Assembly (NCBI GenBank): GCA_018398765.1
Contig: JAHBMJ010000099.1
Span: 1-56,944 of the forward strand
Direction: 5' to 3'
Length of the DNA stretch: 56,944 nucleotides
Source of the DNA: Chromera velia
Lineage: Eukaryota
Shown: piece by piece, positions 5,632 through 44,150 of the stretch
How the letters are laid out: each line of letters begins with the position of its first letter
How positions within the stretch are numbered: position 1 is the stretch's first letter
The notes under the pieces: generated by a model
What the model was told of the DNA's origin: nothing
Database searches by the model: none
Seen by the model: the letters and a program-made list of their open reading frames with translations, nothing else
Program-made: the position numbers and the translations under genes

Positions 5632-7819
5632 ATGCCGAGTTTCTGCTCATTTATCGTGCTCCAGGCCCTGGCACTTGGTTGTCTTACGGCGGTGTCCGTG
5701 TGGGGTCATGAGGGCAACGACGACGATCACGACCAATTGACGGGGAGGCACATGCACTTCCATACAAACAGACCAGTGGACGTGAAGGTGCGTAATCCAA
5801 TTAGACGTCACAGTGGTTTAGTCAGAAACAATACGACTGTTCTGCTTACAAATGCTTCTAACTGTACAAAAATGCAAAGCAAAAAAAGCTGTGCGTCAAA
5901 AGCAAACCTGACCATTTGTTGACCTCTCTCTTTCTCATTATATATGCTTAATTGTTTTCTTATATATATACTTGTGTGCAGCTTCCGGGATGCGTGGTCA
6001 GTCAGTCAGTCGGCCTGGTGGCTTTGGGTGCTGAGAGCTTCTTCAGAATCCTTTCTCCTCCTGTCACACTCCTGCCTTCTCCCCCAACCCAAACTCTCCT
6101 CTCGCTCCTTTCCGTCCTTTCCTGTTCATTCACACATATATATAAAGCCCTCAAATGAAGTTAAAAAAAAAAGACGCCCCACCCCCTTCCATCCCACCCA
6201 CTCCGTCTTCCTGTCCCGTCTACTTACCCCTTCCTCGCACTTGTCTGTTTCTTTGTTTGTTTGCTTGTCTGTCTGTCTTGCTGGCTGCGCGCAGACTGAA
6301 ATCTCGGCAGGGAACATGGACTTCACTGTGGGAGTGGACATGACAAGCGACCTCAGCTGGTTCCCCGGTACGTCCGTCAGTGAAACACTGTATGCGTGTC
6401 AGTCTGCTTTACAGTACACTGTATGCGTGCAGTGAGGGTGTGTGTGAGTGCATGGGATGGTAAGTGAGTGAGTCAATGCGTCACTTCGTGACGAAGTTGG
6501 TGGATGCGTGAATGAATGGAAGAATGCGTGAGTGAGCTACTAAGCCTGCGAGTGACTTAGTGAATGAATGAGTGAGTAAGTGAGTGAGAAAGCGACAGAG
6601 CTGTTGAGTGAAAGAGTCTGTATGCGAGTGGGTGTGGAGAGGGCAGAGGGGATGTCCCCGAATTCATGAACGAACACACAAAACCCCCCAAAAGATCCTC
6701 CCCCACTTTCACAACAGAAGTGAAGGGAAGCGACACTGCCCCCAGAGGCGGTCTTTTTCACTCACCCCTCCTCTACCTGCTGAAAAATGCGTCCATTCCC
6801 GTATGTCTTTCTGTATACAGGCAAGAAAGCCTTGGGAATATGAAAGAAGAACTTTTTCAAATTGCCATTTTTTGCTCTTCTCGAATTCACTTCTTCTGCC
6901 GGGGTCTCTTTCGCGTTTGTGCAGGCCTGGGCTGCAAACTTTGCAAGAGTCAGTGGCTAAGTCGTGAGAAAGTAAAAACGGAGTCCGTACAAAAGACGCT
7001 CAGTGGGTGACTCTGTGGATCATCCTCGTTCTTTCTCCTTCCCTCCTCCTTTTTGGCGCAGCTCGGACCAGCTCCCTTGGCGGTGTTCTGCAGTGCCTTG
7101 TTGTGGTTCCAAATTGCTCAGCTCTTTTTGTTTTTGTTTTCACGTTTTAATGGTCCCGCCCCGCCTCTTGGGCAGAGACGTAAGTATGGCTGGCGAGCCT
7201 GCCGGGACGCACACCCCTAATTCTTTCTTTCTTTCTTTCTTTATTTATTTATTTCTTTGGTTAGTGTCCTCTCTCATGTTGTTTTTGTACCCCCGCGTAC
7301 AGCAGAGAGACATTTGATGTCTGGTCAGAGAATAAAAACCGACAAGCAAAAACAGGCATCTACTAGCCGTGTATGTGCATGCCCTGCTTGGTTTTCGATG
7401 CTCTTACTGAATGACCGCAGCCAACTCGCCCGACGGGTGCACACAGCAGTGCGGACGGAATGTGCGAATGCCTGAGTGTCGGGAGTCGATCCGGAAGGAG
7501 GACGAGAACGGCAACGAAGTCATCGTCATGGGGAACAGCAAAGACCCAAGACTCGTAGACCAAGTCGGAGTGAGCGAAATGAAAGTGATGAGATCTTGGG
7601 GAGGGGCACACTCAGCATCAGGACCAATCTGTGCAACCAAAGTCACGAATGGAGGTGAGGGGATTCATCGGACAGCGAAGTTCAATTTTGGTTTGCCTGC
7701 AGATCGCATGGGGTGAGAGACCCAATCAAGTAAGGGTGCCCTCCCCCCCTCGCAGAGCTTCACATTGACGTTTCTTTCCTTTACCAAGTGTTTCAGCAAA
7801 GAGACTGCATGACATGACT

Positions 7820-7861
<42 letters not shown>

Positions 7862-9015
7862 TGTGTGTGCATTTGCAGAATGCGGGCTCGAAACTGTAGT
7901 TGAATACATTTTTGCAACGCTCGAGCATGTCGTCGGGTTCCCTTCTAATCCTCCTCAGGACCTCATTCCGGTAGGCTCTTTCTCTCTTATCTGTGTTTGC
8001 CTGGATGCATGCTTGTGTGACTCTAATTGTCTAGAATATCTGAGGTAGGCTTCTTTTCTGTCTTGCGTCTTTCTTTCTTTCTTTCTTTCTGTCTTTCTGT
8101 CTTTCTGTCTTTCTGTCTTTCTGTCTTTCTGTTTTTCTGTCTTTCTGTCTGTCTGTCTGTCTGTCTTTCTGTCCGTCTGTCTGTCTGTCTTTCTGTTTTT
8201 CTGTCTTTCTGTCTGTCTGTCTGTCTGTCTTTCTGTCTTTCTGTTTTTCTGTCTTTCTGTCTGTCTGTCTGTCTTTCTGTCTTTCTGTCCGTCCGTCTGT
8301 CTGTCTGTCTGTCTGTCTGTATAGTCTGCCTGTCTGTCTGTCTGTCTGTCTGTCTGTCTTTCTGTCTGTCTGTCTTGCTGTGTCCGCTTGTTTCCCTCAA
8401 TTCCCCGTCGGGCACTCTCCTGCAGGGCGGAATGCTTGGTTTCTCCCCCCAATCAAAACGTGAGTCCGTTCGTTGGACTGTCAGTCAGTCAGTCAGGCAG
8501 GCAGGCAGGCAGGCAGGAAGGCAGGCAGTAAAGCGATTCAAATCGACTTTCTTTTGCAAGCGTGCGACTGGGACGAGGCCTTCCTTTCCTCCCCCTGCTT
8601 CTTCTTCTTCTTCTTCTTCTTCTTCTTCTCCTTCTTCTTTCTTCCTTTTTCTCCTGTTTCTTTGCTTTTTTGTTTCTTTTTCGCGTCTTCTTGTCGTGTG
8701 CCTTAGCTTCCTTCATTTCTTGCTTGCTTCCTTCCTGGCTTTTGTTTTTCTCCTCTCCCCCCCTTTCAGTTCTGGAGTCCATCATGCGATCGGACCTCCA
8801 GGGCCTCCAGGGACAGTGGAGCCTCCTTCTGGGGCCTGGGAAGGAAGGGGCAAGGGTGGGTCGGTGGGGGGGAGAAGGGGGGGGGGGCATTGACTGGATG
8901 ACCGCAATCTTTTGCTTTGTCCCTCTTGCCTTTGCCAGGCCTACTCTCAATGGTAAAACTGTTTGGCGCTTTCAGGTGGAGCATCTCACAGGCATCATCT
9001 TTCACAGATACACAG

Positions 9016-9111
<96 letters not shown>

Positions 9112-9301
9112 GCACACACACGCACACACACGCACACACACACACACACACACACACGCATACACATATATATACACACACACATTCACGCAGGTGCACA
9201 CGCACTTACATACACGCATACATACACACATCTGCACATACACACACACACACACACACACATGCACGCAGGTGCACACGCACGCACTCACACACACGCA
9301 T

Positions 9302-9336
<35 letters not shown>

Positions 9337-12300
9337 CACGCAGGTGCACACGCACTTACACACACGCATACATATATACGTACACCTGTCACTGGGTGAA
9401 TGCGTCAACAAGTGATCGGTATGCTGTCATAGAGTTCTCCCCGCTCTGTTTTCTTTCTGCCATTACTTTTTGAATTCACGAAGATGGCGTGCTTCTTCGT
9501 CTTTTTTTTGTCAATTTGAACTCTGTTTTCCATTCTCCATGAAAACCTGTCGGAGCAAATTCAGATGGCTTTCGGCACCCCCGATGAAATATCAGAAGAG
9601 GAACCCACACGCGTCGTGTGCACTAAATGGATTTCTGCCTGGAAGGCGCCTTGGGGGAAGAACGGAGGGGGACGCGTGGAGTCGGATGCCAACGCGAGTG
9701 ATTTGGCATCGGATCCTCCGACTGAAGAGGAGGGAGAAGCATCAACTGAAGAGGCACCGGACCTCTTGTCTGACGATACGCAAACGGTGGAAGAGAATGT
9801 GAAGCGTTCCAAAGGTCTCTGGGCATTCCACGTTGACAGAGTGAGTGTGTACTCTCACACACTTGCAGGATCACCTGGGAGGTCCACAGCGTGTCTGTCG
9901 TCAAGCTTTTTCGAATCTGTGCAAGGTATCAAAAAATGGTTTGGCTTTGCAAATGACGACAATGGAAAAGAGAAACAGACAAAAGAAAAAACAGTTTTGT
10001 GGACCCGGGAGGGTTTCGTGAAGGCCGGTAGTCCTCCTGAGGCGCTTAACGAGATCAGAAAAGAAGGTCCGAAAGCAAAAATCAGGGACTACGTTCAGGA
10101 GTTGGATGAGGCAGAGCTTGACCTCTCCGCTTGGGAAGAGACCGGTTGGGAGGAGGGAGAAGAGGGAGACGGGTCGGAAGATCTGTTTCAAGACACGCCA
10201 ATTGAGGACACACACAAAATTCCTTCCACAGAAGTTCCCAGTAACGAAAAGGACCAGAGAGAAAGAAAAGCCTTCGAGAGGCGAAAACTCGCAGGAAGAC
10301 GCGACAGAAGAGCGAGAAAGAGAGCGTCAGGAGAGGAGAGGGATCGGTGTGTTTGGGGAAAGAATTCCACTGAAGACCCCAAACATCTCCCCGGACTGGG
10401 GCGAAAGAGAAAGAAAACGATCATCGCGGAAGAGTCAGTCAGTCAGTCAGTCAGTCAATCACAGGACATCGATCGCATGACTCTCTCTCTCTCTCTCTCT
10501 CCAAGGAATTCGTCCATTCTCTTTTCTTCTCCGTGATCCATGCCCATCAACCCGGGCGGCTTTTGGTGGAATGAGAGACTACCTGCAAATTGTTTGACTG
10601 TTTTGCTCCACGACAAAGTGGGTGGCTGTTGCTCTCTTCAAAGCTATCGCCTCTTTCGGTGCTTTGCCCAAAAGTCCTCACTCAGTGCGTGACAGTTTCG
10701 AGGCTTCTGTCACTCGAAGGTCATCTTTCTTCGCCTTCGATTCGCTGTGTGTAGTTTCGAAGCACCAGAAGAGCTTCACAAAAGTGTACTTTCTTTCTCT
10801 TTTGCTTGCAGTCAATATGCTGCGTTCAACTTGGGTGTGGTGCCGATCATCACTCCTGCCGGACTAGACAAGGAGCTTCGAGAAAAACTGGTGGAAGCCC
10901 TGAAGCCGAGTGACTTCGAGTAAGTCTGCGATGACGGATTGAGTGAGAAAGCCCAAGTCGGATTTTCAATTTGCTGAGGGAAGCAAGTCTTCATTCGTAA
11001 GATTCCGAATGATTTCTACTAGACGACTTGGTTTGCAGCTCAAAAGCCAGCCACATGGTCCTAAATTCCTCCTCTCAGGCAGACCCGCTGGGAAAAACAG
11101 AGAAAGGATGAGCAAGAAGGGGGAGTAGAGAATTCAACAATGCCGGACTTCTCTCTTGCAAGTTCTTTCTTGCATCGGTCTACTCTCTCATGCTTTAAAG
11201 ATTCCTCCGTGCGTGTAAAGAAAGTCACTGAGCCTGCTACACGACAGAGCGGATGTACGGCACTTTCTGCCGCACCTGTACTAGGTTTCCAGTAATGTGC
11301 TTACTCAAACCTTCCTTCTTTATTCTTACACTTTGCAAAACAGGTTTTTCTTCTCTCTTAATTGCCATTTGCTTTCAATTTGCAGACAATTAAGAATCAG
11401 AGACTGTGACGCAGGTACGTCTGTCTGTCTGTCTGTCTGTCTTTCTGTCTGTCTGTCTTTCTGTCGGTCTCTGAGAGCAGAATTCTAGCCCCGCCCCGCT
11501 GTGCACATACAGAAAGAAAGAATCGAGGAAAACAAATGCAGGAGTGATAGAGAGAAAAAGTTTTCACTGAAGTCTTTGGCAGCTGAGCAATTAAGAGCGA
11601 TAATGCGCGTCTGGTTGATTCAGGCCAGAGGTAAATACTCCTGTCTTCTTCACTCAAGTTTGTGATCTGAATTTTCTTTCCGTTCAGCTATATCAGGAGA
11701 CGTCATCTTACATGCCCCAACTTCCCTTGGCAATCTCTTTGTTTAGGACGGAGATTTTTCCGCGGCCTTTTTCGGCCTTTCGCGCTGCATTCCTTTCTCT
11801 GTCTGGCTTTCGCAGAAACATTGGAGAGCCTGGTGTGCACGTGCGAGTCTGTGTGGCTCGACCAGGAACACAAGTGGGTCAGTCAGGTGGCTGGCTGTAT
11901 TACGGATTCACCTTGAAACCTCCATGAACTTTGCTTTGTGACGCTGGCAGTCAATCAATTCATCTCACCTTATCTGCTGTGTGATCTCGCTGCGTGGGAC
12001 CTGTTCCGCTCTCAAGTCAATGCTTCCAAGAGCGGCCAGAGCGTTTTATCCATATTCCAGTGAATCTTTTCTATGGTACCTTTCTTGACCCATCTCCCTC
12101 CCTGCAGGTGGGGGCGTCTGGTGTTTGAGGTCAACGGGTGGGAGTTGGACCTCGGCCCTAGAGACTACTTCTGGCCCATAGAGGATACTCAAGACTCGAG
12201 GTGCAAACTGGGTGCGTTGTCTGGGACAGACAGACAGACAGACAGACAGACAGGTCGTCAAATCGTTGCAGTAGGAAAAGGAACACGAATGCATTTTCTG

Positions 12301-37560: not shown

Positions 37561-38760
37561 ACAAATTGAATTGGGGGTGATAATGATGATGATGAAACCG
37601 TTGTTTTGAGAACATCACTGCTTCAAACTTGAGACGACATCCCACAAGAAAGCTTTCTAGAGATTTTTCGTGAAGAAACAGTTTCGCTTGAGCACCGTTT
37701 TCAACGGTTCCTTCTCCACATCTGTCAGACTCAGCCAGCATCTCGCCTGTATATGCCTGTATAACTCCCTCTCCATAAATCAGATTCTACTCCAACTCAA
37801 GAGCTATAGTTAACAGTGACGACTGGCTCTGCTTCCTTGCGTTTGCTTCTCAAAAAGGCAACAGTTTGACTCTCCGTTGCTGACCTATCTCCTTGCCGTC
37901 TCCAGGCCGTCTCCTTGAATCAGTTTGTTGTTGATCGCTTCTGTAATGGTCGCGTGGCCAACGTCCGCACTCTACAATGGAGTGGAACCTCCTTCTCGCC
38001 CTCCCCATAAAGCGATGCCAACACGCCCCCTCCACAAAACAGTGCATCCATGTTCTCCTCCTTGAATTTGAAAGGCGATTCCGTCAACAAAATCCCTGGA
38101 CTCGTCTAGTAGACTCGTCTACTCCACTATGAACGTTGGTTCCTCAAAACCCTTCTCCCCACGCACTCCTCCTGAGGTTCCTTAAGCCTCAGTACACTTC
38201 ATTCACCTTTTTCTTGAAGGACACTTCAGCCAAAACCTGTTTGGGCTTTCAGCTCAGACTGTTCATAAGCTGTTTGACCTTTGTGTACAGGAGGATCTGC
38301 CTTGTTGTGACGGCGTAGATTTTGTTAGGCAAAGGGGCCTGGAGGCAGTTTTTCGTTGTGACATGACGGAGAAGCATGCCAACGATGTCATTGCTGCCCA
38401 GGATGAGCGTTCGCTCTTTTCTATTTGCGAGTATGGAGACGCGTTCCCTTCTTGTAAGGTGCGGCTTCGTGTCTGCGGAGAAACTCACCTTTCTGAATCA
38501 GAGCAGGAAGAATGCAATGTGCAACGTTCCTAGGCAACGTTCTGTGCAGCAGCTCTTCTCTCTGCTTCCTCTTTCTGACCGCGTAAGTCCTCGTCTATGC
38601 TAGTATTCTGTGCAGCAGCTCTTCTCTCTGCTTCCTCCTTCTGACCGCGTGAGTCCTCGTTTAGCTATGCTAGCATTCTGTGCAGCAGCTCTTCTCTTTG
38701 CTTCCTCCTTCTAACCACGTGAGTCCTCGTCTACGCTTCACTGCACAGATGACGACAGTC
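37560..38760 (-). pseudogene. Decayed coding sequence of unknown family
   Basis: Balanced, coding-like composition. Protein-like minus-strand fragments (ORFs 38249..38488, 37850..38047, 37559..37741) are broken by stops. The 66-bp repeat reads DEDSRGQKEEAERRAAAQN, with CAG>TAG in one copy. Confidence 0.4.
38540..38740. repeat. Three tandem ~66-bp repeats (38540-38605; 38606-38675 with a 4-bp insertion; 38676-38740)
   Basis: Unit TTCTGTGCAGCAGCTCTTCTCTCTGCTTCCTCCTTCTGACCGCGTGAGTCCTCGTCTATGCTAGCA aligned by eye. Confidence 0.92.
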
Positions 38761-39841
38761 ACTCCCGCCGTCGTTTCCAAGTCGGCAAGGAAGTCTTGGC
38801 GTCAGAGGGTATAGGATTAGATTCAAGACGAGATTGGTTTTCTTGAACAGTTTGAAGAGGGGGAAGAGCAAGCGTCCAGCAAGGAGAACCTCTCCTTTGA
38901 CATGTCTTTCCCATCAGTCATATGCGCTGTACGGGCTTTTGCGACACTCGAAAACCATCTAGCAGGAGAGGGAGAGGGTGACCAACCTGGTCTTCAAAAG
39001 GGTAAGTTTGTTGCAACATGGCTATGACAGCAGACTGAGTATGAAGCTCAGCAATCGGAGTCTGTTCTGTTTCTTGTTTCTTTGTTTTCTTTCCTTTTTA
39101 TCTCCTCATTCTCTTCTCCTACAGATAAACGACGTAAACACAATGACCGAACGGTCCTTTTCCAAATTGTTCATCCCTTTGACCCTTTGAACGCCTTCTT
39201 CGTACATCCATTCCAATCCTTGTTCTCCCTCTTTACTGGTTTGCTCTGGCTGCTCTCAGTACCATGGACTAGACCGTGGATTAGTTTGACTGTCGTAGCC
39301 TTCTATGGTGAGGGGCGGTACTTAGATTGATTAAGCGTTATTCATACAGGCGCCAGGTTTCAGTTAGCAGACGGCAGCCCCACCCCGATGAGTGATGGAG
39401 GTCTGGCAAAGGGGCAATACAGCATTATCCTAGACTCATGCATTGCATAATAGCCTATAATAATAATAATAATAGACCGATTAATAATAATGATAATGAT
39501 GATGATGATGGGGTAGTTATTCTTTTTTTTTTAGTAATATTTTAATTCATCAAGCAAAGTGATAAAGTTTTTTTATTTGTTTTCATGCGCTTTATTTTTT
39601 TATCTTGCATAACGCACTGTTACGTAGAGATGATATGGCAGCTATATAAGGGTGGTCCAATCGATTCCGTCCTGTGAAGGGCACCCGCGTCGACCATGCA
39701 TCTGATGTAAGCAAGCTTGTGAACGGTCTCAGAAAGGAAGAAAAATGATAACTGGTTAATTGACGCACGCTTAATTAGCCTATTATAATAGCTGCTTGAA
39801 GCAGCAGACAAGTATATGCATGTGCGTGCTTCGTTAATTTA

Positions 39842-40031
39842 GTAAGTGCCCCCCGGCGCGCTTTCCGGGGCCATGGTAGTTTTTAAGACTTTTCTCAGTA
39901 TTTCTGAGCCAATAAGGAGTGGAGCTTTCCGGGTATTTCCGGGGCCTTCTTTTGGTGAAAGACAGCATGCATGGGCTGTATAGGGTATTTCTGCTTTGTA
40001 AGTGCCCCCCGCTTCGCTTTTCGGGGCCATG
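39842..40031. repeat. Two 34-bp direct repeats, each a GC-rich hairpin (39842-39875 and 39998-40031)
   Basis: GTAAGTGCCCCCCGGCGCGCTTTCCGGGGCCATG versus GTAAGTGCCCCCCGCTTCGCTTTTCGGGGCCATG; both have CCCCG...CGGGG arms. Confidence 0.8.
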
Positions 40032-40301
40032 CACGCCAACTTGTTTGGAAATCTTTGGAAGAGCCCTATAGGAGCGAGGGCCGGTTCGCAACGCGTGTTG
40101 TGTTGCACGATGTGTTGCGCTGTTGTGCAACATGACATGTGCACCCATGCAGTATACATAGAGGTGTCTGACATGTCTCAGATGCTTCAATTGAACTGCT
40201 TGCTTGACGCGGCACTCTTTAATTAGATGTGTATATGTGCAAAGAAGATCAAAAGTTTATGAATCAGATCCTGCAAGTTTGAGTCTGAGTTTGCTGCTAC
40301 G

Positions 40302-41969
40302 ATGCTTCCAAGACGAACGCAACCGGCTGTTGTTCGAGAATTGCTGCATCACAGCAAGAGATGCTTTCCCCCCCTGAAGTCCTCTGCAGGAAGTGCAGCC
40401 CTGCGCCGGGACATAAAGTGCTCAGAGAGACAAGAGACTGGTGTGGAGAGACATTGGTTTCTGGGAAGCATATCTCCTCTGCTAGAAGCGAACTCCACTT
40501 CACGCCCAAACTCACAAGAAAACATTCAGAGAAGCTTTGCGTGCAAAGAAGCGGACGGACCGGAAAAGAAACATGCGCACTTCGACTTCTTGCGCTTGCA
40601 GCTGTTGCAGCCAGAGAAGGATCTGTGCGACAAGAGGACATTTGCTGAGAACCTGTCCAGTTCCCCGTCAGGAATTGTGTCCTCTCGTTCCTTTTCTCCG
40701 ATTTCTACTCTCGCCCCCGTGCTACAATCAGGTGCTCGAAACAGTCATTGTTTTCCACTTTCTCTCGGAACCCTCCGTTGTCGTGCGCAACTGCACACGT
40801 TGGCTGTTCCTACTTCTCACCAGCTGACAGAAAAAAAGGGTATGCCGCAGATCCGATGTGTCCAGGCTGAATGGGTCACTGATATCCCTTTGCCTCTCGT
40901 CCCAGCAATGGAAGCACCATCTAAAACTCGTGTGACAGCGAGAAATAAAGGGAAGTGTCCTCACGGAAAGGATCGGTACTATTGCAAGGAGTGCGGGGGA
41001 AGTGGCATCTGTGTACACGGCCGCCAACGCAATAAGTGCAAGGATTGTGGAGGAACCAGTATATGTGAGCACGGCCGCGAACGCTGTAAGTGTAAGGAGT
41101 GTGGGGGAAAAAGTATTTGTGAGCACGGTCGGCAGCGCAACCACTGTAAAGAGTGCGGCGGGAAAAGCCTTTGTGAGCATGGTCGCTCGCGGAGTCAGTG
41201 CAAGGAGTGTGGAGGAAAGAGCATCTGCGAACACGGTCGCCGGCGCAGTATTTGTAAAGAGTGTGGGGGCGGGAGCATTTGTGAGCATGGTCGCTTACGC
41301 TTTCAATGCAAAGATTGCGGTGGGAAGAGTATTTGTGAACACGGTCGACGACGGAGTACTTGCAAGGAGTGTGGGGGAAGTGGCATCTGTAAACACGGCC
41401 GCCAGCGACACCATTGCAAAGAATGTGGAGGGAAAGGCCTGTGCAAACATGGTCGCCAGCGCAGTAAGTGCAAAGAGTGTGCTGGGGACAGGGTATGCGA
41501 GCATTCACGTTTCAGGGATCGCTGTCCGATCTGCCAAAAGGATAATCCCCTGTTTCTTGCCAAGAGAAAAGAGAAGAATGCTCAGCGACGGATGAGGTAC
41601 AAAGATGACCTCATCTTCCGGTTGGCCCATACCGTGCGTCGGGCAGTCTGGAGATGTCTCACTTCTATTCGAGACAAGCGTAGCTCTCTAGAAAAAAAGC
41701 ACAGTTTGGAGTACCTCGGTTGTTCCTCCCAACAGCTGAAGGCCCATTTGGAGAGAGACTTCCGTCCTGGAATGTCGTGGGACAATTATGGGGGAACTGG
41801 ATGGCATGTTGACCACATTGTGCCAATCATGTATCCGGGCCCTGACGGGAAGAGACCGGACGTTGAGACTCAGATTGCTCGTCTCCACTTTTCAAACCTT
41901 CAGCCGATGTGGTCAGAAGAAAACCTTCGAAAGGGTAACAGATTCGTCGGCAGGCCCGACTGTCTCTAA
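40302..41969 (+). CDS. Tandem CxH-x6-CxxC zinc-binding repeat protein with C-terminal HNH endonuclease of NCLDV/phage type. The true start may be ATG 40908, or upstream with an in-frame intron at 40840-40905.
   Basis: Eleven 18-aa repeats at 40953-41534, then YLGCS...LK.HLE..F.PGMSWDNYG..GWHVDHIVP...HFSNLQPMW.EEN.RKGNR, with intact DH, N and N residues of the beta-beta-alpha-metal fold. Confidence 0.9.
   Translation: MLPRRTQPAVVRELLHHSKRCFPPLKSSAGSAALRRDIKCSERQETGVERHWFLGSISPLLEANSTSRPNSQENIQRSFACKEADGPEKKHAHFDFLRLQLLQPEKDLCDKRTFAENLSSSPSGIVSSRSFSPISTLAPVLQSGARNSHCFPLSLGTLRCRAQLHTLAVPTSHQLTEKKGMPQIRCVQAEWVTDIPLPLVPAMEAPSKTRVTARNKGKCPHGKDRYYCKECGGSGICVHGRQRNKCKDCGGTSICEHGRERCKCKECGGKSICEHGRQRNHCKECGGKSLCEHGRSRSQCKECGGKSICEHGRRRSICKECGGGSICEHGRLRFQCKDCGGKSICEHGRRRSTCKECGGSGICKHGRQRHHCKECGGKGLCKHGRQRSKCKECAGDRVCEHSRFRDRCPICQKDNPLFLAKRKEKNAQRRMRYKDDLIFRLAHTVRRAVWRCLTSIRDKRSSLEKKHSLEYLGCSSQQLKAHLERDFRPGMSWDNYGGTGWHVDHIVPIMYPGPDGKRPDVETQIARLHFSNLQPMWSEENLRKGNRFVGRPDCL
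40953..41534 (+). repeat. Coding 54-bp tandem repeat, 11 units (consensus ICEHGRxRxxCKECGGxS)
   Basis: First Cys codon at 40956 and the eleventh at 41496, an exact 54-bp spacing. Confidence 0.95.
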
Positions 41970-42090
41970 ATTTGATATGAGTGCATCGCCAGTCTTGCCT
42001 GCGTTTACCCGTGTTCCAACTTCCAAGCTACTTCTATTCCTCATTTCTATGTATAATAAGTTTGCTTGCTTAAATACGTATAAAGGGTAT

Positions 42091-42700
42091 ACTTACTTAC
42101 TTACTTACTTAATTGTGGTTAAGCCTAGGGTCTCCGAAACTAGAGACAAATGGCAACCCATGCATGCAGTTGTAAATAAAAGGAGCAAACCACCGCAGCT
42201 TAGCCTGCTTCCGCATGAATATGAACAACCACAACCCTTCGCAGCCTAGACTGAAGCTAAAGGCTGAACAACCACACAAGACGTGCGTGCACTCATTTCA
42301 AACAAGCTTCGATCAGTGCACTTGCCTTCTTCGGCTCCCGGTCTACAATGAATGAAACGAGCTCTCTTACATATGTTTCTTCTTCCCCGATACCTCTTCC
42401 CCCAGCTATAGCAGTCCATCTTGCTCTGCAGACCCTTTCACTAATTCCTGTTCTCTCTTTCACTCTCTCTGCCAGCAAGTAAAGTTTAGATCTAAGCTGC
42501 TCTGTTCGCATGCATGCAGACAATCGATGCACCGCATCGTCGATCACCTTAATTTTTGTCTTTGACTGCAGGACAGTGAACACAGTGTTATACAGTATTC
42601 TTTGCAGGATTCACCGTGTCTCTTTCCCCCACCAGCACATGCTTGAAGGAGAGAGGTGAAAAGAGAACCACCAGACAAGAAAGAGCAAGGCAGAGTACGC
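42091..42700 (-). mobile_element. Decayed 3' fragment of a non-LTR retrotransposon (CCHC zinc-knuckle C-terminus plus (TAAG)n tail; RTEX-like)
   Basis: The minus strand reads H.L..E...*HCVHC / (frameshift) VIDDAVHRLSAC....QLR, with a stop at 42293, a short 3' UTR and then (TAAG)x~5 at 42110-42091. Confidence 0.5.
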
Positions 42701-43379
42701 ATTTGAACAGTTACTGTGTAACCCCACCCCTTTCTAACCCTCCCCCCTAAAAGCAACATGGGTAGACACTGGTGCGATCGGTTCTCTATCTGAAAATTAC
42801 TCAATTGGGAGTTGCATGGATAGATACTACATGAACGGATGAGCCTATACTCGCTGACGGGTCTTAAAGTCAACCATTCCGACAACCATTCTGAGGCTTC
42901 CCTTTCCCTTGCTTTCTGCCTGAGTGTCCATTTATTCGTTTTGTTTCTCCCTCTCTGGCTTTCTTTTCTTAAAAGATCTGGTATGATTGTCTAAAGCATG
43001 CTACTGGCTGAATTAGCTCATACCGGGGTTAGCGATCTGTGCTATGCATCCCAGACTGCCCGAGGAACCTCCCTTTCTCTTCTCTTTATGCTTTCTATGA
43101 AAGTTTAACCCCCCAACCGATAAAAAAGGATCTCTCTCATGAGACGTATACCAACCAAAACCAAAGTTGGCACTTTGAAAGAGTTATAGGGCAAACGGAA
43201 TGTCCAGTGCATAAATCAAAGTTGCAATACATCAAGTGCAACGATATCTCTCTGACTTACCGGTAATTAAGGCTTCCAGCGAGTACGTTGCCACCGGCTC
43301 CCAGAGTGCCTGCAGTAAATAAACTTTGCATCGAGGGCGCAAAGGACCTAAAGATCAACAAGTGCCCATCACTGCCCCC

Positions 43380-44150
43380 AAACAGCGTTCAGTTATAGGT
43401 TTAGTTCATAAGTTAGTTAGTTAGTTTAACAACGAAATGTGAAATAACTAAAAAATTAAACTAACTAAAGATTATGCTCAGCTTTTAACTTAGTTTCAAG
43501 TTAAAATAGAAAGAGTGGATTATCTATTATACTAAACGTATTATTAGCGGTATATAGCTTTACTGCCTGGGATTCTGGGCTGGGAGCTTAATGCTCAAAT
43601 TGGGGTTAGACATCCTGTAATTAACTGATTAACTAACTGACTGCTTATCCAACTAACTAACGAATTATCAGAATGGATGTCACAATGTTATCGTCATGAA
43701 ACTTCTAAGAAACATGTAAAAGGCCAGGAATTTAGACAAAAATTTAAATTTTTAAAACTTTGGAGCTCGATTTTTTACTAAGCAGGATGAGATAAGACTT
43801 GATATTAATAGTTAGTGCTTATAGACTATTATAGACCTATATAAGATGAGAATTAAGACGGGTTTGTCAGAAGGTTCTACTTTTTTAATTTAGTCTTGAA
43901 TCTAGGAGCAAATATGTTTATTGATCACTTTAGACCAGTTCCAGCATTGGTGGTTTGAACGATACGGTAGAAAAAGAAAAAAGGGAGAGAGGAAAGATGG
44001 GGTGAAACCTGCATAACTGTGTTATAACATTTTCTTTTCATTGTAAAGACTACCCTTTGTTATAAGAGAAATACCTTAATCTACCTTAATCTTGAAAAAA
44101 ACCGACCCATTTGCCTAACTCTTTCTGAGACTTTTTTAGTCTTTTCTTGG
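43380..44150. mobile_element. AT-rich degenerate block, probable transposon relic
   Basis: AT/TpA-rich with no ORF of 60 aa or more in the track, and a sharp boundary with the GC-richer promoter of the next gene. Confidence 0.4.

What the first reader, a model, noticed from the sequence alone, without database searches (positions are those of the whole stretch)
40908..41969. Natural ZFN/TALEN-like architecture: 11 zinc-binding repeats with position-specific variable residues fused to a viral-type HNH nuclease
Seen: eleven perfectly spaced 18-aa units with an invariant C-x-H...C-x-x-C scaffold and a fixed Arg. Variation concentrates in the five residues before the second Cys: KDRYY, RQRNK, RERCK, RQRNH, RSRSQ, RRRSI, RLRFQ, RRRST, RQRHH, RQRSK, RFRDR. 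A basic helical linker joins them to an HNH domain with intact WHVDH...N...N. Known: this GCS...GM.W.NYG..WH.DH..P HNH family occurs in giant viruses and phages, and CEHGR..CKECGG repeats are common in algal and giant-virus proteins. Inference: the array is a modular nucleic-acid reader with a recognition code in the variable positions, targeting a nuclease or nickase. It could be a reprogrammable homing-type selfish gene or a domesticated anti-virus/anti-TE factor.
Basis: partly seen in the sequence, partly recalled or inferred. Interest (0 to 1): 0.9.

Follow-up and report, generated by a model that had tools for sequence, protein, structure and literature searches.

The report
Virus-derived zinc-repeat nuclease in alga
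A single-celled alga carries an intact gene joining eleven tiny predicted zinc-binding repeats to a likely DNA-cutting domain; it likely came from a mobile virus gene, and in viral relatives two positions per repeat change unusually fast, which hints at, but does not prove, a DNA-reading code.

Summary
Observation confirmed: 11 units of C-x-H-x6-C-x-x-C at a strict 54-nt period, then a basic helix and an HNH-type domain with D-H...N...N intact. Positions 6, 8 and 9 vary; 5 and 7 are nearly fixed Arg. The closest relatives are Chromera velia paralogues, which form one clade inside array-bearing environmental HNH proteins (four known to be viral). In virophage-like contigs the gene occupies three different slots, with empty sites in relatives. 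In environmental arrays, units identical in DNA over codons 11-18 still differ at position 6 (35 of 53 pairs) and 9 (40 of 53), a PRDM9-like signature. This copy's array is old and unshuffled, so that test does not apply to it. No target, code, binding or cleavage is shown. The high-copy flanks look like separate retro-element ends, not a carrier. This scan has already noted the architecture repeatedly in giant viruses and phages; the nuclear, expanded HNH form is what is new here. Verdict: new variant of repeat-guided homing-type nucleases; code plausible, untested.

The parts
40302..41969 (+). Uninterrupted ORF, 555 aa; 353 aa from the internal Met at 40908
   Evidence: GC3 0.52 against 0.54 for the ATG7-like ORF of the window and 0.12-0.35 for nine environmental kin
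40302..40955 (+). N-terminal extension of about 218 aa, likely coding and poorly conserved
   Evidence: stop-free in 4 of 20000 shuffles; no significant blastp match of residues 1-215 to 14 Chromera models; single-copy depth at 40138-40871
40956..41534 (+). Array of 11 x 18-aa C-x-H-x6-C-x-x-C units, predicted CHCC zinc sites; variable positions 6, 8, 9
   Evidence: AF2 model pLDDT about 97 over most units, with a repeated beta-bridge and short helical turn; no match in Pfam, PDB sequences or PDB folds (73, 74)
41547..41672 (+). Basic helical linker (residues 214-255); its first half is an insert absent from the 29 environmental array-HNH proteins aligned
41703..41951 (+). HNH / His-Me finger nuclease domain with D302 H303 (41811-41816), N330 (41895) and N339 (41922)
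   Evidence: PHROG 1035 'endonuclease VII' E 3.9e-10; fold hits to HNH/His-Me proteins, weak, Z 4.3-4.6; BFVD HNH endonucleases E 4e-7; D302 and N330 invariant in 30 sequences
37578..39508 (+). Context, not part of the gene: high-copy repeat with a (TAA)n/(TGA)n tail and identical 18-nt flanks, likely the 3' end of a retro-element
   Evidence: summed depth rises 104 to 2281 toward the tail against about 18 single-copy; flanks D6; no Pfam domain
42086..43392 (-). Context, not part of the gene: 3' end of a longer high-copy element ending in a (TAAG)n tail, likely a 5'-truncated retro-element
   Evidence: depth about 1300 at the far end to 5800-9800 near the tail; a 3009-nt contig of a putative RNA run goes on beyond 43392; tail at 42090-42111

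Best explanation
This intact nuclear gene joins eleven 18-residue repeats to an HNH-type domain and likely encodes a site-specific DNA nickase or nuclease of the free-standing homing type, likely acquired once from a eukaryotic DNA virus and then multiplied in the host genome. Shown: the architecture; intact catalytic motif; one host clade nested among array-bearing environmental HNH proteins; movement of viral kin between gene slots; excess change at unit positions 6 and 9 in environmental arrays. Inferred: each unit binds one zinc through Cys1, His3, Cys10 and Cys13. The fixed Arg/Lys at 5 and 7 would grip the backbone, while residues 6 and 9 (and partly 8) would read bases. The chain of units would then specify a long site and the HNH domain would cut beside it; repair from the gene-bearing copy would spread or keep the gene. 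Recognition is likely modular but context-dependent, as in C2H2 fingers, rather than a one-to-one TALE cipher. This copy is an old, stable member under purifying selection.
For: HNH family includes an intron-encoded endonuclease of Bodo saltans virus (BFVD E 2.6e-7); such introns are described as homing elements (PMC5871332, passages). Viral kin occupy three slots among virophage-like contigs. L163 2927-3861 is absent at L162 about 956-959, and the L164 cassette is absent from L082. The cassette starts just after the upstream stop with its own leader. The same array carries HNH, PD-(D/E)xK-like or other tails. Of 53 disjoint unit pairs identical in DNA over codons 11-18, held-out synonymous codons differ in 34 of 336, but residue 6 differs in 35 and residue 9 in 40, against 7-10 at positions 2, 4, 5, 7. 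Neutral simulation predicts about 25-40%; 26 and 35 of the 53 pairs differ by 2-3 nt in those codons. Window array: scaffold pN 0.07 at pS 0.81. Motif intact in 22 of 24 host-clade HNH copies. Host clade 100 SH-aLRT inside a 97 clade with 30 array-bearing HNHs.
Against: The window array is not homogenised or recently shuffled, the codon usage is host-like, and the viral leader core is not upstream (3 matches elsewhere, chance level). All of this fits domestication equally well. In a prasinovirus-like clade the gene sits in one fixed slot, next to the same neighbours in 14 loci, and two virophage-like copies in one slot have unlike arrays (L163, L164); neither is simple homing. Many array proteins have no nuclease. 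The trees have few columns, no tested root and only quick searches.
Confidence: 0.5

Rival explanations
1. Same biochemistry, but domesticated: the host keeps a family of repeat-guided nucleases that cut invading viruses, Polinton-like elements or transposons, evolving by duplication and divergence as KRAB zinc-finger genes do.
For: Host-like GC3; long stem branch and single origin; catalytic motif kept in 22 of 24 copies whose tails are 53-77% identical to this one in the best-covered hits; stable old array; related sequences in contigs of putative RNA runs X5 and X8; about 30 Mb of transposons in Chromera (PMC4501334, passage).
Against: No target known. Tandem and scattered copies and a recent threefold 36-aa block in P0210 fit selfish spread as well. 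No RNA contig identical to this copy was seen, and 'RNA' is the tool's guess.
Confidence: 0.25
2. The array is an avidity or scaffold module (non-specific DNA, RNA or protein binding) and the variable residues do not read bases; the HNH domain cuts with little specificity or recognises structure, as endonuclease VII does.
For: PHROG label 'endonuclease VII'; hydrophobic residues are common at position 6 (Ile 13-20%, Val, Leu); 907 combinations at 6/8/9 over 2499 units with low mutual information (about 0.2 bits, 0.1 when shuffled); orientation of the residues on DNA could not be modelled.
Against: Retention of multi-nucleotide differences at two fixed positions while scaffolds are homogenised means those residues matter unit by unit. 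A non-specific nuclear nuclease would be toxic (inference).
Confidence: 0.17
3. An inert relic of an integrated virus, intact by chance.
For: It lies in an island of decayed repeats with strong transition bias; no RNA contig identical to it was seen.
Against: 555 open codons; 44 of 44 zinc ligands kept; scaffold pN 0.07 at saturated pS; ameliorated codon usage; no viral gene among 27 window ORFs scanned, where only ATG7 hit.
Confidence: 0.06

Closest known systems
Phage T5orf172 homing endonucleases with repeated CapR/DUF723/DUF4379 zinc-finger modules (PMC10448857, section 23 and passages read)
   Same: Free-standing nuclease gene with a string of zinc modules, repeat recombination and swapping of nuclease and binding parts.
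   Different: Those modules have a CxxC...CxC motif and a GIY-YIG-type nuclease in bacterial phages. Here the unit is an 18-aa CHCC repeat with no Pfam match, the nuclease is HNH, and the gene is nuclear in a eukaryote.
HNH homing endonucleases, including intron-encoded ones of Bodo saltans virus (PMC5871332, passages) and mirusviruses (PMC12768974, passages); I-HmuI chemistry is recalled
   Same: His-Me finger with D-H...N...N; structural match to a BsV intron-encoded endonuclease.
   Different: No intron or intein around this gene, and a long repeat array takes the place of the usual binding domains.
MIGE elements of Mimiviridae (10.1101/299784, first half of text read; PMC4669402, passage)
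   Same: [quoted passage not shown]
   Different: No MIGE sequence was compared. The host copy lacks the leader core, and an 11-unit array plus HNH is not in the descriptions I read.
PRDM9 and KRAB zinc-finger arrays (PMC6116924, passages)
   Same: Coding minisatellite homogenised between units while a few positions stay diverse; duplication and change in unit number.
   Different: Unrelated 28-aa C2H2 fold with proven base contacts (unit length from the 84-bp repeat); no nuclease is fused; here contacts are unproven.
Engineered ZFN/TALEN (recalled)
   Same: Repeat reader fused to a nuclease.
   Different: Natural, HNH rather than FokI, dimer state unknown, no code demonstrated.

Membership tests
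HNH / His-Me finger nuclease | beta-beta-alpha-metal motif with general-base His and Asp/Asn ligands | tested here: met
   D302 H303 N330 N339 present and conserved; PHROG 1035 E 3.9e-10; PDB fold hits weak but mostly His-Me proteins; BFVD HNH hits; Pfam HNH models do not score
HNH / His-Me finger nuclease | metal-dependent cleavage | not testable with these tools
   needs assay
Free-standing homing endonuclease | filled and empty alleles of the same site | tested here: inconclusive
Free-standing homing endonuclease | cleaves a long site at or near the empty allele | not testable with these tools
   no target inferred
Intron/intein-encoded homing endonuclease | embedded in a self-splicing element within a host gene | tested here: inconclusive
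   no interrupted conserved gene is evident either side; flanks are repeats; Rfam was not run
CapR/DUF723/DUF4379-T5orf172 HEGs | CxxC...CxC module and T5orf172 nuclease | tested here: not met
   unit is C-x-H-x6-C-x-x-C; no Pfam family at E up to 1
C2H2 zinc-finger array (ZFN/KRAB/PRDM9 type) | C-x2-4-C-x12-H-x3-5-H unit with recognition helix (pattern recalled) | tested here: not met
   different ligand order and 18-aa period; no helix of 4 or more residues inside the units of the model
TALE-like code | small alphabet of variable residue pairs mapping one-to-one to bases | tested here: inconclusive
   two positions stand out, but 251 pairs at 6+9 over 2499 units; no targets to map
MIGE | homology to PgV MIGE ORF plus conserved upstream non-coding piece | not tested
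   no MIGE sequence in hand; primary paper not held
DnaJ central (CR-type) zinc finger, the automatic label of relatives | four CxxCxGxG repeats in a J-domain protein (recalled) | tested here: not met
   label seen, but no DnaJ Pfam hit, and each unit has an invariant His

The most novel reading that the evidence does not exclude
The 18-aa CHCC repeat is an undescribed, very compact programmable DNA reader in which residues 6 and 9 of each unit set the bases read. Viruses use it to retarget swappable nucleases, and a chromerid alga has turned it into a nuclear family of natural zinc-array nickases, some possibly two-armed in a single chain, that act against mobile DNA.
Probability: 0.25. Interest if true: 0.9.

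Novelty: new variant of a known kind. Interest (0 to 1): 0.6.

Why it matters
At 18 residues per unit, this would be smaller than C2H2 (about 28) or TALE (about 34; both recalled) repeats, and it comes already fused to several nucleases. The family is very large: 37,685 representatives score E up to 0.001 to array plus HNH (this counts array-only and HNH-only proteins too). I found no description of the repeat: no Pfam, NCBIfam or PDB entry and nothing in ten literature searches. The selection result names the two residues to test first. A nuclear expansion in a relative of apicomplexans would also be a case of a viral selfish nuclease persisting in, or serving, a eukaryotic genome.

Tried and rejected
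Cargo of a high-copy transposon: suggested by depth on both flanks, rejected because depth falls to single-copy at 40138-40871 and 41985-42085 and the flanks behave as two separate, convergent tailed fragments. Retrocopy with poly(A): none seen after the stop. Single-sequence AF2 was useless (pLDDT 43); the 90-row alignment gave 90. The array was not folded alone, so its lack of PDB matches does not show a new fold. Pfam, NCBIfam and PDB sequence searches were blank. The exact protein is not in the cluster collection. The first viral scan with the tail found HNH genes without arrays (my script found 0 units in the ORFs it could call in 80 loci). No RNA holder was listed for the locus, which is no evidence on expression. 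The careful tree did not finish and no clade or root test was run. In-register comparison between prasinovirus-like arrays was confounded by unit gain and loss and gave no clear answer. The uncorrected pN>pS counts are biased by choosing low-pS arrays and by codon bias, so I rely on the held-out test. Its arrays come partly from related loci; one pair per array still gives 18 and 22 of 30 at positions 6 and 9. Position 8 (25 of 53) is near the neutral range. No code or target could be derived. Supplements of the papers were not read.

Full report
Observation. The window is eukaryotic nuclear DNA (an ATG7 ORF was the only Pfam hit among 27 ORFs scanned). A 555-codon ORF runs 40302-41969. It holds 11 units of C-x-H-x6-C-x-x-C every 54 nt from 40956, the only ones in the window; shuffles give at most 2 matches in 20000. 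Its start is an internal Met: the 215 codons before it are stop-free in 4 of 20000 shuffles. Within a unit, positions 6, 8 and 9 vary, and 5 and 7 are Arg in 10 and 11 of 11.

Domains. Pfam and NCBIfam give nothing. The tail matches PHROG 1035 (E 3.9e-10). With a 90-row alignment AF2 gives pLDDT 90, a regular repeated unit, a long helix and a beta-beta-alpha tail. PDB fold hits are weak (best Z 4.9 to an unrelated axonemal chain; His-Me proteins such as CAD, Cas9 HNH, PacI and Cap5 at Z 4.3-4.6) and barely cover the array. Viral models match well, including giant-virus proteins auto-named 'DnaJ central domain', HNH endonucleases and a Bodo saltans virus intron-encoded endonuclease. Zinc binding is inferred from the invariant Cys, His, Cys, Cys.

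Family. The full-length search gave 3844 hits among 7992 candidates. Of the 120 listed, a regular expression filed 82 tails as PD-(D/E)xK-like, 26 as HNH (one, P0043, is visibly misfiled) and 12 as other. Among the 339 proteins held, 39 besides this one have 3 or more units followed by this HNH; many others are array-only. The nearest Atlas clusters are 100% viral where known. The best hits are Chromera velia models: 14 of 93 tail hits plus P0210. I infer the window is Chromera or a very close relative. Seven of these 15 models hold two HNH motifs, and the catalytic pattern is intact in 22 of 24 copies counted, including this gene and P0217, which I placed in the group by similarity without a source label. 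P0210 carries an exact 36-residue block three times in a shifted frame, i.e. a recent two-unit duplication. Summed contig depth over the HNH end reaches 522 against about 18 single-copy, which points roughly to some tens of paralogues (depth is not a copy number). Contigs of putative RNA runs match the HNH part with 21 differences in 496 nt (X8) and 15-19% differences (X5), so relatives may be transcribed.

Origin. In a 110-row tree (20 host-group, 40 array-bearing, 50 of 229 array-less domains) the host group is one clade at 100. In a 70-row mixture-model quick tree it lies inside a 97-supported clade with 30 array-bearing HNHs. Only L081-L084 among these are known viral contigs. The root was not tested, so virus-to-host transfer is an inference. 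The gene's GC3 (0.52) equals the host's (0.54), not the kin's (0.12-0.35), so the acquisition is old.

Context. Both flanks are high-copy, but they resolve into a plus-strand element at 37578-39508 with a microsatellite tail and identical 18-nt flanks and a minus-strand, 5'-truncated element at 42086-43392 with a (TAAG)n tail. Calling them retro-element ends is an inference from tails and depth gradients; no RT domain was found. The gene itself is not cargo.

Mobility of kin. In virophage-like contigs (my reading from a packaging-type ATPase, and recalled protease and penton-like motifs) the gene is found in three slots. L162 is continuous at about 956-959 where L163 has a 935-nt insert, and that insert is 83% identical to L162's own copy elsewhere. 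Four copies begin right after the upstream stop with a shared leader whose core I recall as the giant-virus early promoter. Against simple homing: a prasinovirus-like clade keeps one slot in 14 loci with 6-14 units, and L163 and L164 share a slot but not their arrays.

Is there a code? Loci gave 94 array ORFs, 76 distinct, and 53 distinct arrays of 5 or more full units. Choosing disjoint unit pairs identical in DNA over codons 11-18 gave 53 pairs from 30 arrays. Held-out synonymous codons differ in 34 of 336 (0.41 between random arrays), yet residue 6 differs in 35, residue 9 in 40, residue 8 in 25 and positions 2, 4, 5, 7 in 7-10. A neutral simulation at that divergence gives about 25-40%. 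Codons 6 and 9 differ by 2-3 nt in 26 and 35 of the 53 pairs; the 24 pairs from HNH-tailed genes give 17 and 19 amino-acid changes. This is the pattern described for PRDM9 (PMC6116924, passages): scaffolds homogenised, specific positions kept different. It shows that those residues matter unit by unit; it does not show that they read bases. The alphabet is broad (251 pairs at 6+9, low mutual information). In the window's own array synonymous sites are saturated (pS 0.81) while scaffold pN is 0.07 and pN at 6/8/9 is 0.53 (10 full units): an old array under purifying selection, on which the test has no power.

Mechanism. Most likely a repeat-guided, homing-type HNH nickase or nuclease of viral origin, expanded in the host (0.5). 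Rivals: domesticated defence nuclease (0.25), non-specific or non-DNA array (0.17), relic (0.06). Binding, cutting, target and dimer state are untested.

Literature. Ten searches found no description of this repeat; subscription papers are not covered and no supplements were read. Seen: PMC10448857 (section 23 and passages), PMC5871332, PMC12768974, PMC6116924, PMC12220804, PMC5753266, PMC4669402 (passages), PMC4501334 (passages and section 34), 10.1101/299784 (first of two parts). The design, zinc-module strings on swappable homing nucleases, is known from phages. This scan has noted repeat-array nucleases in at least 8 other genomes, giant viruses and large phages, mostly with Vsr-type tails; those notes are leads only. 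What this finding adds is a nuclear, expanded, HNH-type branch and a held-out test that names positions 6 and 9.

Verdict. Real; a new variant of a known kind; interest 0.6; 0.9 if a usable code is shown (probability 0.25).

Noticed in passing
window:39839-39875 and 39995-40031: Two 37-nt GC-rich hairpin-like repeats (86% alike) in a stretch with the highest summed depth of the region; other genomic copies appear tandem (joints). Element type unknown.
   Followed up: partly
window:38540-38737: 70-nt tandem repeat (2.9 copies) inside the left repeat; other copies and a putative RNA contig skip 149 nt here.
   Followed up: no
window:36300-44100: Repeat copies here differ from other genomic copies almost only by transitions (X1: 235 transitions, 40 transversions), with an excess of T/A in the window copy, suggesting methylation-driven or RIP-like decay.
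   Followed up: no
P0003, P0005, P0028, P0067, P0077, P0105, P0123: Chromera gene models with two HNH motifs, the first running on without a stop into a linker and often a second array: tandem genes or single-chain two-armed nucleases; gene models cannot tell.
   Followed up: partly
L081:1-475 (-) and L082:4074-4898: Same slot after the ATPase and near-identical N-terminus, but different arrays and different C-terminal domains: a direct example of nuclease swapping.
   Followed up: partly
L212:2875 and 3333; L214:2881 and 3932: Tandem array-only genes without a nuclease, ending a few residues after the last unit.
   Followed up: no
window:3618-4940 (-): ATG7 N-terminal plus ThiF domains; ordinary host gene.
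   Followed up: no
P0210: Array-HNH gene fused in the public gene model to a downstream protein with PF18137 (recalled as an origin-recognition-complex domain); probably a mis-joined model.
   Followed up: no
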